64,000 bases of DNA, from assembly GCF_009914755.1 (NCBI RefSeq), contig NC_060939.1. One strand, 5' to 3'. Under the pieces are notes generated by a model. That model saw nothing but the letters and a program-made list of their open reading frames with translations. It searched no databases and was not told where the DNA came from. A program made the position numbers and the translations under genes. Position 1 is the stretch's first letter, and each line of letters starts with the position of its first letter. Positions 22,501 through 62,469 of the stretch are shown here, piece by piece. This DNA comes from the human T2T-CHM13v2.0 reference genome, Homo sapiens.

Positions 22501-24398
22501 GGATGCAAACATAATCTTCAGAACAAATTCAAGATAAAGTTGATTCCTTTACAAATGCTATTTCTTTTTCTTTTTTCTTTTCTTTTTTTTTTTTTTTTAC
22601 TTCTTTTAGAATTAGCAATTTTGAAACAGAAAATGAGGTGCAACTTTAGGTCTCACACCTTATACTCTCAGAGCTCCTCTCTATGCCAAGGTCCAGGGCC
22701 ATGTGTAGACTATCATCTTTGCATTCTGGCCATAGCTCACTGGGGTGCAGATGACCAACTGGCTGAATCTAGACCAATAAAATTTTCCTCTTAGAAGTAT
22801 GGAAATAGGACACAGAGCTGCTGGTAAGTTTCTGTTAATGAATTGGATTGGGAAGTGATGTATGTAAAACAGTAAAACAGATGCATGGTGGTACTGATTA
22901 CCCATTTGCTTGTCTAAGCTGAGAAACTATTCTACAAAAAAGGATGAGAAAAATGAAGCAGTTGGGAAGGAAACAATGGCGAAACTTCTGAGGCTCACAG
23001 AAACAGTATGTTTATTTTGGTTTCTGGCTTTCCAATCCCCAGTTCCATGGAAATGAAATATGGTTTTACATCTAACCCTAGATGTTATGAGATCTAAAAA
23101 ATAATCCCTTTTACTTTGTATATATTGGTTTAAATGGTCTTTCTTCCTTATAACCAAACAATTCCCAAAATATAGATGTAAATAATTTTGAAAGTTGCAG
23201 CATACATTTATTAAGTATACAGTATTTCAGTACAAAATATATATCCACTACACAATATTGCAAATTTGTTTTGGGGTTAAATAGGTTATTCTGAGATGTG
23301 CTCACCACCAGTTATGCCACTCTCTAAAATAGTGAGCAGGAGCCAAATCATGAAGAATACTAAATGTCATTCCTTAGAATATTTGAAAACCATTTGTAAG
23401 AGAGAATTATTTAAAACAAATCTTTTCTCTCTTGGGCATAAACATTTTCCTGCAATTAATTCCAAGTCCACATTTTCCATATGAATTTCAGAAAAGAAAT
23501 AGCCCCAAATACACCCATTTCTAAAAATGAGAACGATTATATTATTGATACTTTTTTAGAAAAAGGTACTGACTTTCCCAAAGGCCGGTTCAGATGCTTA
23601 GGGTGACACAAGACTCTTTTGTGTAACAGCCCCAAAACTGAACATGATTCGTGTTTGAGTAAAGAAATATAAAATTATCAAAGCAATTAATTAAAGGCTG
23701 TCAGAATCAGAAGGTTTAAATAGTGTAAATTTCTAATTGGTAAAGAAAGTTCCTTCTTTTGAAAGGGAAATACTAAAGGCAGTAGAGTTATCTCATAATC
23801 AGTAGATATTAGTGTTGGATAAATATTAGTGTCTAGACTTCGGGTTACAGTGCACTAGTTAATTTGCTCCAAATTTCTTGCTGAAGACAACTAGAAAAGT
23901 TGGGTAAAATATAAAAATCTATTCATTGGTGAAAACAATAGATACACAGAAAAATCTTTTTAAAAACTAACTATATAAGAAAGAAAAGACAGATTTCCTT
24001 TTAAGAAACAACAATAAGATATACATCTAACTTCTCAATAGAAACATAGGAGGCCGAGGACAAAGGAATATATTTTTGAAAGGTTGAAAAGAAGTAACTT
24101 CCAACTTAGAATTTTATATCCACTAAAAACTGTCCTTTCAAAATAAAAGAGAAGTATAGCAATTTTTAGAAAAATATGAAGAGGGTTTATTATCAGCATG
24201 CTTGCACAAAAGGGGGTGCTAAAAGGTGTGTTTGGACAGAAGAAAACTAATGTAGAATCAAAGATCAGAGATCCAGAAAACAATGAAAAGCACAGATAGA
24301 TAAATATTAATATCAACTGTAAGAAAAATGATAATAATGTCTTATTGTATTTTTATATTTAGAATTAAAATAAATTTCAAGAAATCATACTAACATGA

Positions 24399-46898: not shown

Positions 46899-47399
46899 TA
46901 TCTTTTCCATTTGTGTTGCTGTAACAGAACACCTAAGACTAGGTAACTTATAAAGAACAAAAATTTATTTCTGACAATCTGGATGCTAACAAGTCCAAGA
47001 TCAAGCCTGCAGCATCTGGTGAGGACCTTCTAGCTGTATCCTCACTTGGAGGAAGGCGGAAGGACCACAGGGACCTACTGCCTTAACAATCCCCTTTATA
47101 AAGGCACCTAAGCCCAATCACAGGGGAGGAGCCCTCCCACAGTTTAATCACCTCTGAAAGGCCTTGCCTCTTAATAGTATCACACTGGCAACATTTGAAT
47201 TTTGGAAGGGACACTTTTTTTTTTTTTTTTACTTTTTCAAATGATATTTATTTAATTTCCCCAAAGTGCATATTCTGTTCTGATACACACACATACATCT
47301 GTGTAAATATAACTCCTCATGCAAAAACGTATTTTCATAAACATCTCTTTTGGTTACCAAATATCCAGGAGTCAGAAGGGACACATTTAAACTGTAGCA
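46899..47399 (-). mobile_element. MSTC/MSTD-type MaLR solo LTR interrupted by an anonymous retro-insertion
   Basis: TCCATTTGTGTTGCTGTAACAGAACACCTAAGACTAGGTAACTTATAAAGAAC...CCTCTTAATAGTATCACACTGGCA; terminal GAAGGGACACATTTAAACTGTAGCA after the insert. Confidence 0.85.
47215..47374 (-). pseudogene. Short polyadenylated retrocopy (3' end of an unidentified transcript, or orphan transduction)
   Basis: On the minus strand: 144-bp body, AATAAA (47247-47252) 16 nt before an A16 tail; TSD GAAGGGACAC (47205-47214 / 47375-47384). Confidence 0.85.
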
Positions 47400-47425
47400 G
47401 GAACTATGGCACTTACTTTCTGATT

Positions 47426-47709
47426 TTTATTTATTTATTTTGTGTGTGTGTGTTGGAGTCTCACTCTGTTGCCCAGGCTGGAGTGCAGTAGTGCAGTCCT
47501 TATGGGTTCAAGCAATTCTCCTGCCTCAGCCTCCAGAGTAGCTGGGATTACAGGCACGCACCATCACACCCAGCTAATTTGTGTCTTTTTAATAGAGACG
47601 GGGTTTCGCCGTGTTGGCCAGGGTGATCTCGAACTCCTGACTTCAGATGATCGCCCACCTCAGCCTCTCAAAGTGCTGGGATTACAGGCGTGAGCCACCG
47701 CACCCAGTC
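47426..47709 (-). mobile_element. AluS with a short deletion in the right arm
   Basis: TSD TACTTTCTGATT (47414-47425 / 47710-47721). Confidence 0.94.
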
Positions 47710-47721
47710 TACTTTCTGATT

Positions 47722-47950
47722 CTTAATGGCGCTTACTCTTTTCCTGCTGCAGTAATCGTGGAAGCAAGTGATGATACTGTGGTGTCCTAAAGCAAAGCAT
47801 CCTGGATCACTGTGCCAGCAGGTGGAGAACACCGCCCTGAAAATCTGCCTGGACTCCTAGTCCATTATGCGTGAAAATCACTCTTGCTGTGTGAAATTAC
47901 AGATATTCTGAGATTGTTACTGCAGCAAAGCTAGCCTCTGCTCACCGGTA
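47722..47950 (+). mobile_element. Old MLT1-type LTR 3' part (probably continuous with about 46810-46898)
   Basis: CTCTTGCTGTGTGAAATTACAGATATTCTGAGATTGTTACTGCAGCAAAGCTAGCC resembles an MLT1 LTR 3' end. Confidence 0.5.
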
Positions 47951-60612: not shown

Positions 60613-62469
60613 CACTTGGTCTTGAATTATACATATACTGATTTTATTTTTTTAACAAAGGTTGCACTTAGGTGAAAAGTACCTTTTGAGAGTCCTCCTT
60701 TCTTCCTCTGTCTTTTCTCTCTGCTAGGTTTCATTTGATAGCCTTGAATGTGAATAAAGAATAAATACGGCTTTCCCGTACCCTAGGACTATCCTCTGCC
60801 TTATTTATGTCTGACCTGGTGCAGTACTGCTGACCTTGGAAAGTTTAATTGAGGCTAGAATTATATGGCACAGCTTGAGGCCACCTGAATTTAGAGGGTG
60901 TGACATACAGAAAGACACACACACGTTCACTGACAGTGTAAAGGCCTGATGAACAGGAGCATTTGTGTGTGTATATGTGTGCCTTTAGCTGCTGAAACGG
61001 CAGCAGTGGAAATAGCCTATTGTAAGTTTTTACTAGGCAGAGTTCTTATGAAACAATATAATATACCTACATTCCTCGATAATTAAAACACTGAATTCAT
61101 TTGTTAAATAAATGCAGAATTACTTAAATATGGAAACTATTAAGGTTAAAAAAATAGGTCTAATTCAAGACATAACTATTCTATAAAGTATTTTTTAGCA
61201 ATTTTATAACAGATCAAGTGCTAGATATATGATGACCCTTCCCTTATGTCATTAAAATAATTGAATAACATAAATCAAAGAAAAAGTTTTATTAATTGAT
61301 TTGTCTTATATAACTATTTAAATTTTTAAAGCTATCATAAATGGCCAATTACCCAAAAATCATCTATTACATTTAATAATATTATGACCAAGACTATCGG
61401 TATGACTTGTACATGAAAACAAAGGTGTTGCTATTGAGAAGAAAAAATTATTTTTGTTCACTAATTAACTAGATTTAAAATCAATTGCATTCCTACCCAT
61501 ATATTCCCCAATTATTATTTTAGTACATGGTATATTTTGAACTATTTTACCATGAATGTTGTTGTAGATAAATCTGAAAATCAAAGCAGTCAATTTTCAT
61601 TCATGCTACTTTTATCTAATTAAACAAATAATCATGTCATTATATTTAGAGACACTACTATATATCCTGAGCAATTAGTTAACAGCATGATAAAGCCCAA
61701 AAATATTTGACAAAATACTTCCATTTTGAACTACAAAAGCTATTTTTTGTTGTATCTAGCACAACTAAAACTAGTTCTAAAAATGATCTTTAAATAATGA
61801 CTAAGATTAAATGGATCAATACATGATATTTTCATATGTATAAAATATATATGTAAAGCATATGTATGTGAAACATATATATGAAAAGGCCTCTAGACAA
61901 CTTACCTTTAAATAACTAAAGTTTTAAGATAAAAATAATATTCTCTTTTTTTTTTTTGCATAGAGAATCTTATCCATATGTGAGCAATGCTCAGAATTTG
62001 TGAAACATGAAGGAAAATCTCAAGTTTGCCCACAGGGCATTCTAGATTCCCAAACGTAGAAGCTAGCCAGATAATTACACCCATATGTACCCATGTAAAC
62101 TCATTCACAAATGAGGTTTATAGCTTCAAGTGAAACTCAAGATGTCATCAAGTTGTAACATAGCTTCGTTAATCTGTATACTATATAAAATTATTTTAAA
62201 TTAATTCTTATAGTGACAAGATTTTCTTTAGAAAAATATTTCTCATACCATATACAGTTATGAATACATAAAACGTACAAATTAGTTTTAAAATTGAACA
62301 TCAGTGGTCAAATTTTATGTAAAGAAAGTAAGGACTTCTGTCCATATCCTGCCAACAATTTAAGGTTTTGTAAATTTCATTTTGCTAAGAGGCCTTGACA
62401 AATTACATGACCCTAATAATTGTATTTTAATCTAGAAATCTGAATTGAGAAATAAAAATAATAAATTAA

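What the first reader, a model, noticed from the sequence alone, without database searches (positions are those of the whole stretch)
47205..47388. Anonymous 144-bp polyadenylated retro-insertion hidden inside an MST LTR
Seen: the LTR is split near its end by a duplicated GAAGGGACAC (extendable to about 14 bp). The right copy ends ATTT|AA, resembling an L1 endonuclease site. Between the copies, on the minus strand, is sequence I do not recognise as any repeat, ending ...GGGGAAATTAAATAAATATCATTTGAAAAAGT-A16, with AATAAA 16 nt upstream of the tail. Established: TSD, poly(A) tail and endonuclease site are hallmarks of L1 target-primed reverse transcription. Inference: a heavily 5'-truncated processed copy of a cellular mRNA/lncRNA 3' end, or an orphan L1/SVA 3' transduction. 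With no coding sequence it would probably escape pseudogene annotation. The pure tail suggests it is fairly young.
Basis: partly seen in the sequence, partly recalled or inferred. Interest (0 to 1): 0.7.

Follow-up and report, generated by a model that had tools for sequence, protein, structure and literature searches.

The report
Old retro-copy of chromosome 8 RNA
A 144-base copy of DNA from just upstream of the EMC2 gene on chromosome 8 sits, with an added poly(A) tail, inside an old repeat on chromosome 15; it was likely pasted there from an RNA by the LINE-1 enzyme, probably 10-35 million years ago, and is an ordinary case of a known process.

Summary
The insertion is real. Window 47231-47374 (minus strand) plus A16 lies between duplicated targets (10/10 exact, 13/14 extended) with an ATTT/AA nick site. 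23 of 29 sister LTR copies are contiguous at this point and none carries the insert. Its one other genomic match is chr8:109,566,432-109,566,573 (8 substitutions in 142 columns plus a 2-nt indel), 5.6 kb upstream of EMC2's start codon, same strand. The tail is not templated there, so a real polyadenylation event was copied. Two corrections: the source signal is ATTAAA (the insert's AATAAA is a one-base difference), and the event is not young (5.6% diverged; pure A16 tails also occur on old Alus). No full-length same-strand L1 or SVA-like stretch lies in the 100 kb upstream of the source. Best reading: LINE-1 ORF2p copied in trans the 3' end of a non-coding RNA (0.55). Main rival: an orphan 3' transduction from an L1 that never fixed (0.33). 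It resembles a class 1 templated sequence insertion, probably fixed. New instance of a known kind; no function indicated.

The parts
47205..47218 (-). 3' copy of the target-site duplication (10 nt exact; the last 4 nt merge with the tail, one mismatch)
   Evidence: (family D5)
47215..47230 (-). poly(A) tail, A16, not templated at the source (source continues AGACTCTT; the first A could be templated)
47231..47373 (-). copied sequence, matching G000:C8:109566432-109566572 (+), 8 substitutions and one 2-nt TG gain or loss
47251..47256 (-). ATTAAA, 20 nt before the tail, shared with the source; likely the poly(A) signal used
47247..47252 (-). AATAAA present only in this copy (source AATACA; difference at 47248)
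47374..47374 (-). one base at the 5' junction that matches neither the duplication nor the source (untemplated, or a later substitution)
47375..47388 (-). 5' copy of the target-site duplication
47385..47390 (+). L1 endonuclease-like nick site ATTT/AA (one mismatch to TTTT/AA); only 2 of 29 sister LTRs have TTAAA here
46899..47399 (-). host solo LTR (MST-type MaLR by recall; left end approximate), 74-80% identical to sister copies, interrupted 12-25 nt from its 47399 end

Best explanation
A 144-base sequence whose only other genomic match lies 5.6 kb upstream of EMC2 on chromosome 8 sits in a chromosome 15 LTR with an A16 tail and a target duplication; it was likely reverse-transcribed there by LINE-1 ORF2p, likely acting in trans on a polyadenylated non-coding RNA, probably 10-35 million years ago. 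Steps: (1) RNA polymerase II read the chr8 + strand and the RNA was cleaved and polyadenylated 20 nt after ATTAAA (signal and untemplated tail shown; the transcript itself inferred, promoter unknown). (2) In a germ cell or early embryo ORF2p nicked ATTT/AA in the LTR and primed on the tail (site shown, enzyme inferred from established TPRT hallmarks). (3) Copying stopped after about 141 templated bases (shown); the second nick 14 nt away made the duplication (shown). (4) Both copies then drifted neutrally (differences shown; age inferred from recalled rates).
For: One other locus only: 2 of 2 candidates for the insert query, and the only non-self hit in that part of a 3.7-kb source query among 40 of 290 candidates scored. 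Direction: tail and duplication on chr15; chr8 flanks share only 5 nt, the chance level. Tail untemplated: 6 A in the next 20 source bases. ATTAAA 20 nt upstream: 5-7% of positions have AATAAA or ATTAAA so placed. TGTA 61 nt upstream; +51..+100 is 66% T+G. Downstream gene is EMC2: first-exon peptide 13/13 identical to PDB 6ww7_B, followed by GT (E 0.032 because short). No candidate cis driver: + strand L1 pieces in 100 kb upstream are short 3'-end pieces without RT-domain matches. 0 of 91 + strand stop-free frames of 75 aa or more hit Pfam, while a minus-strand control frame hit RVT_1 at 1.8e-34 (1 of 2 control frames). No CpG-rich stretch other than Alus and the EMC2 promoter. PMC5110952 describes this class: intronic or intergenic polyadenylated fragments inserted in trans.
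Against: No transcript is shown: I had no chr8 annotation, poly(A) atlas or RNA data. A canonical AATAAA lies 251 nt upstream of the cleavage site (read), and 32 AATAAA/ATTAAA lie in the 10.4 kb upstream. A long unspliced RNA would have had to pass them, which fits a nearby lost L1 or a spliced last exon better. Rare RNAs are poor trans substrates (general knowledge). A source L1 that never fixed would leave exactly this picture. +1..+50 downstream of the cleavage site is only 44% T+G. Age rests on 8 substitutions: 95% range about 8-65 My on all sites, 3-46 My on the 4 non-CpG ones.
Confidence: 0.55

Rival explanations
1. Orphan 3' transduction: an active full-length L1 once sat shortly upstream of the chr8 site, read through to the ATTAAA, and was so truncated on insertion that only the flank was copied; that L1 never fixed, so the genome now shows the empty allele.
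For: All hallmarks are the same. The used signal is the first AATAAA/ATTAAA after a canonical AATAAA 111 nt upstream of the copied part, as expected if transcription entered from an element inserted between them. Orphan events occur in the human germline: 48 beside 878 partnered transductions (PMC12350158, passages; their 'orphan' means only 'aligns outside exons'). Active L1s are often rare alleles (recalled).
Against: No L1 sequence in the insert. No sibling transductions among the 40 scored matches of the 3.7-kb source query. No full-length L1 remnant. It needs an element that cannot be seen.
Confidence: 0.33
2. Special case of the trans model: the RNA started in the + strand MLT2A1 LTR 10.4 kb upstream (C8:109555751-109556200), a family active in early embryos, and spliced or read through to this poly(A) site.
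For: 450-nt LTR with many 87-90% identical copies. It has a TGATTGGATT motif near its start, a GTGAGT donor at position 367 and no AATAAA or ATTAAA. PMC8559712 reports MLT2A1 donors near position 350, with about 97% of acceptors in unannotated or non-coding sequence (passages).
Against: The matching row of Table S1 of PMC8559712 (hg38 chr8:108427292-108427741, +; matched through a recalled hg38 offset, then by length and strand) is expressed in 0 four- or eight-cell samples, 0 TPM, not active. No splice junction is captured in the insert.
Confidence: 0.06
3. 3' transduction from an element still present upstream (L1, SVA or Alu).
For: A + strand L1 3' piece (about C8:109561960-109563290) ends about 3.1 kb upstream of the copied part.
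Against: It is about 1 kb of L1 without 5' end or RT match, only 71-74% identical to the larger neighbouring L1 pieces, and split by an Alu whose best partner is 77% identical: far older than a 94%-identical copy. Other + strand pieces lie 22-94 kb away and are short.
Confidence: 0.03
4. DNA-level or break-repair patch (class 2 templated insertion) with a chance T run and chance duplication.
For: One possibly untemplated base at the 5' junction; an 8-nt inverted repeat flanks the source segment (39 of 3000 random flank pairs reach 8 or more).
Against: Untemplated A16 exactly 20 nt after ATTAAA, a 10-14 nt duplication (chance about 1e-4) and an endonuclease-like site occur together.
Confidence: 0.02

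Closest known systems
Class 1 templated sequence insertion polymorphism (Onozawa and Aplan, PMC5110952)
   Same: Distant non-repeat donor left intact, duplication over 5 bp, untemplated tail of 10-40 A, poly(A) signal 10-30 nt upstream, TTTT/A-like site.
   Different: Those are polymorphic insertions found against the reference. This one is in the reference and 5.6% diverged, so probably fixed. The donor signal is ATTAAA, not AATAAA.
Orphan L1 3' transduction (PMC12350158 definition: polyadenylated insert aligning 75% or more outside exons)
   Same: Same anatomy; no mobile-element sequence; unique donor.
   Different: No source L1 or SVA at the donor in this genome; old rather than polymorphic.
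Monoexonic, 5'-truncated processed pseudogene
   Same: TPRT hallmarks; 3' end of a polyadenylated RNA.
   Different: No parent gene found: the donor lies upstream of EMC2; no coding sequence or splice junction.

Membership tests
L1 TPRT product | target-site duplication | tested here: met
   10/10 exact, 13/14 extended; single copy in 23 of 29 sister LTRs
L1 TPRT product | untemplated 3' poly(A) | tested here: met
   A16; source not A-rich after the junction
L1 TPRT product | endonuclease site like TTTT/AA | tested here: met
   ATTT/AA, one mismatch
Class 1 TSIP | distant, intact, non-repeat donor | tested here: met
   the search tool skips very common words, so rarity is not proven
Class 1 TSIP | poly(A) signal 10-30 nt upstream of the tail in the donor | tested here: met
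   ATTAAA at 20 nt, a variant signal; AATAAA absent in the donor
Class 1 TSIP | polymorphic in humans | tested here: inconclusive
   No hit for either coordinate in the held supplements of PMC12350158, but the table file was cut when stored and the transduction tables were not seen. Divergence argues for fixation.
Orphan 3' transduction | full-length same-strand L1 or SVA upstream of the donor | tested here: not met
   none in 100 kb of this genome (control 43); an unfixed source cannot be excluded
Orphan 3' transduction | source element in other primates, or sibling transductions | not testable with these tools
   no primate genomes available; no siblings among 40 of 290 candidates scored
Processed pseudogene | aligns to annotated exon(s) of a parent gene | not testable with these tools
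   no chr8 annotation; the donor is outside EMC2, upstream of its first coding exon
Known repeat or structured RNA 3' end | many copies or a family match | tested here: not met
   two loci only; 0 of 4 Rfam matches at E<=1 overlap the insert or source; Dfam not available
MST (ERVL-MaLR) LTR as host | match to the Dfam or Repbase consensus | not testable with these tools
   multi-copy LTR-sized repeat shown; name recalled

The most novel reading that the evidence does not exclude
The insert is the only surviving record of a 'ghost' LINE-1 that was active beside EMC2 in an ancestral ape or monkey population and never fixed. Reference-fixed orphan inserts of this kind could then be mined genome-wide to map vanished source elements and ancestral germline poly(A) sites that no repeat or pseudogene annotation holds.
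Probability: 0.33. Interest if true: 0.45.

Novelty: new member of a known kind. Interest (0 to 1): 0.27.

Why it matters
By itself little: a short, probably neutral insert in a gene-poor region. It is a clean dated fossil of an RNA 3' end: some + strand transcript was polyadenylated 5.6 kb upstream of EMC2 in the primate germline or early embryo. It is also a usable presence/absence marker for primate phylogeny. Such inserts carry no coding or repeat sequence, so gene tables miss them (the supplied RefSeq table has no row for it).

Tried and rejected
Young age from tail purity: rejected. EMC2 3' UTR retrocopy: rejected, the donor is upstream of the first coding exon. Extant L1, SVA or Alu driver: rejected. 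Insert as part of the LTR family: rejected, 0 of 29. Reverse direction (chr15 to chr8): rejected. Structured RNA: no Rfam match; the 201-nt source fold has z -0.54. MLT2A1 promoter: weakened by its inactivity in embryo data; sister copies of that LTR were not aligned, so whether its missing AATAAA is unusual was not checked. A simple acceptor scan found one site, 584 nt upstream of the copied part; uninformative. Literature: 10 searches showed no paper on this insert or on a + strand RNA ending at the donor, judged from listings; none used the coordinates as terms. Supplements: PMC3836709, 12 of 19 files searched, nothing; PMC12350158, nothing but the file was cut; the large isoform tables of PMC10616205 could not be read and could hold the donor transcript. 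Onozawa 2015 was not held. Earlier scan findings were not available.

Full report
Observation. On the minus strand it reads: LTR start, first target copy (47388-47375), one extra T (47374), 143 copied bases (47373-47231), A16 (47230-47215), second target copy (to 47205), rest of the LTR. The duplication is 10/10 exact and 13/14 when extended into the tail. The chance of that 10-mer recurring within 300 nt is about 1e-4. The nick site is ATTT/AA. Of 29 sister LTR loci (29 of 39 non-self matches; 40 of 2123 candidates were scored), 23 are contiguous here with one copy of the motif, 6 are uninformative, and none holds the insert. Most sisters read TTTGAAT or similar where this copy reads TTTAAAT; 2 of 29 have TTAAA. 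So a private change probably made the endonuclease site (inference). The name MST is recalled, not tested.

Source. The insert has one other match, G000:C8:109566432-109566573, + strand in the RNA sense (2 of 2 candidates; the only non-self hit to that part of a 3.7-kb query, 40 of 290 candidates scored). The tool skips very common words, so this is good but not absolute evidence of uniqueness. The alignment stops sharply at both junctions. The chr8 flanks share 5 nt directly, the chance level, and carry no tail, so chr8 is the donor. A CpG island and a first coding exon follow 5.6 kb downstream on the same strand. Its 13 codons match the N-terminus of EMC2 exactly (PDB 6ww7_B, E 0.032). The donor is thus upstream of EMC2, not its 3' UTR. 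No Rfam family overlaps insert or donor.

Poly(A) site. 5-7% of positions in the region have AATAAA or ATTAAA 10-30 nt upstream, so the signal is supportive, not decisive. TGTA lies 61 nt upstream. Downstream, +1..+50 is 44% T+G and +51..+100 is 66%.

Age. There are 8 substitutions in 142 columns (5.6%, 95% range 2.5-10.8%) and a 2-nt TG difference. Four of the eight sit at three inferred CpGs, with decay on both copies; one reads TG on chr15 and CA on chr8. The other four give 2.9% (0.8-7.4%). With recalled primate rates the point estimates are 20-33 My (all sites) and 11-18 My (non-CpG), with extremes of 3-65 My. Eight or more differences would have P about 6e-4 at the recalled human-chimp level; for non-CpG sites alone P is 0.048. 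Tail purity is a weak clock: 12 of 49 Alus found in the fetched DNA have 16 or more pure A, and 8 of those are under 90% identical to their best partner in the set. The host LTR is 74-80% identical to its sisters, so it is much older than the insert.

What drove the RNA. In 100 kb upstream of the donor, + strand L1 matches are short 3'-end pieces. The nearest ends about 3.1 kb upstream of the copied part, is about 1 kb of L1, and is split by an old Alu. 0 of 91 + strand stop-free frames of 75 aa or more matched Pfam; a minus-strand control matched RVT_1 (1 of 2 frames). The CpG profile shows no SVA-like stretch. So no extant element can have carried it in cis. A + strand LTR 10.4 kb upstream has the DUX4-like motif and splice donor described for MLT2A (PMC8559712 passages). 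The matching MLT2A1 row of that paper's Table S1 shows no expression in four- or eight-cell embryos. That match used a recalled hg38 offset, then length and strand. I give this promoter 0.06. Against any long unspliced RNA: a canonical AATAAA lies 251 nt upstream of the cleavage site and 32 signals lie between the LTR and the site. This fits either a spliced last exon or an L1 that sat close by and never fixed. One genome cannot separate these: trans 0.55, lost L1 0.33.

Comparison. It works like a class 1 templated sequence insertion (PMC5110952, parts 1-3 of 4 read) and meets its sequence criteria, with a variant signal. Polymorphism is untested and unlikely, so I do not file it as a TSIP. 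It meets the operational 'orphan transduction' definition of PMC12350158 (passages) if the donor is non-exonic, but fails the source-element test. TPRT hallmarks are as summarised in PMC12016303 (passages). PMC6155119 and PMC8298161 (passages) added nothing on the donor transcript; the latter lists LOC105375704 with EIF3E for one SNP, without strand. Ten searches showed no report of this insert, judged from listings. Supplements I could not see (isoform tables of PMC10616205; transduction tables of PMC12350158; 7 of 19 files of PMC3836709) could bear on the donor transcript or on polymorphism.

Verdict. Real, source located, probably fixed and neutral; a new instance of a known kind. Interest 0.27.

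Noticed in passing
L054:122-147 (C8:109566421-109566446): The 5' end of the copied part falls at the first loop base of a predicted 11-bp hairpin (4 G-U pairs, -9.8 kcal/mol). 126 of 5000 regional and 43 of 3000 local positions do as well. Found after the fact; it could mark where reverse transcription stopped.
   Followed up: partly
L054:118-125 and 276-283: An 8-nt inverted repeat flanks the donor segment; 39 of 3000 random flank pairs reach 8 or more. Probably chance.
   Followed up: partly
window 47414-47725: Minus-strand Alu with a 16-nt duplication (15/16) and a decayed tail, 15 nt beyond the LTR end.
   Followed up: no
L004:410-720 (C8:109567410-109567720): Tandem duplication of about 155 nt, about 0.85 kb downstream of the donor, read by eye.
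   Followed up: no
L005:8751-9200: + strand MLT2A1 solo LTR 16 kb upstream of EMC2, lacking AATAAA; listed as inactive in embryos.
   Followed up: partly
L005:2085-3075: Two adjacent minus-strand LTR-like repeats (LTR7-like and MER9-like by recall).
   Followed up: no
C8:109512127-109515921 (L049): L1 3' pieces in opposite orientations about 2.4 kb apart, 51-54 kb upstream of the donor; relation unclear.
   Followed up: no
window 22583-22598, 2926-2938, 61946-61957: T runs of 12-16 not followed by Alu-like sequence and without an exact 10-nt flanking duplication within 1 kb.
   Followed up: partly
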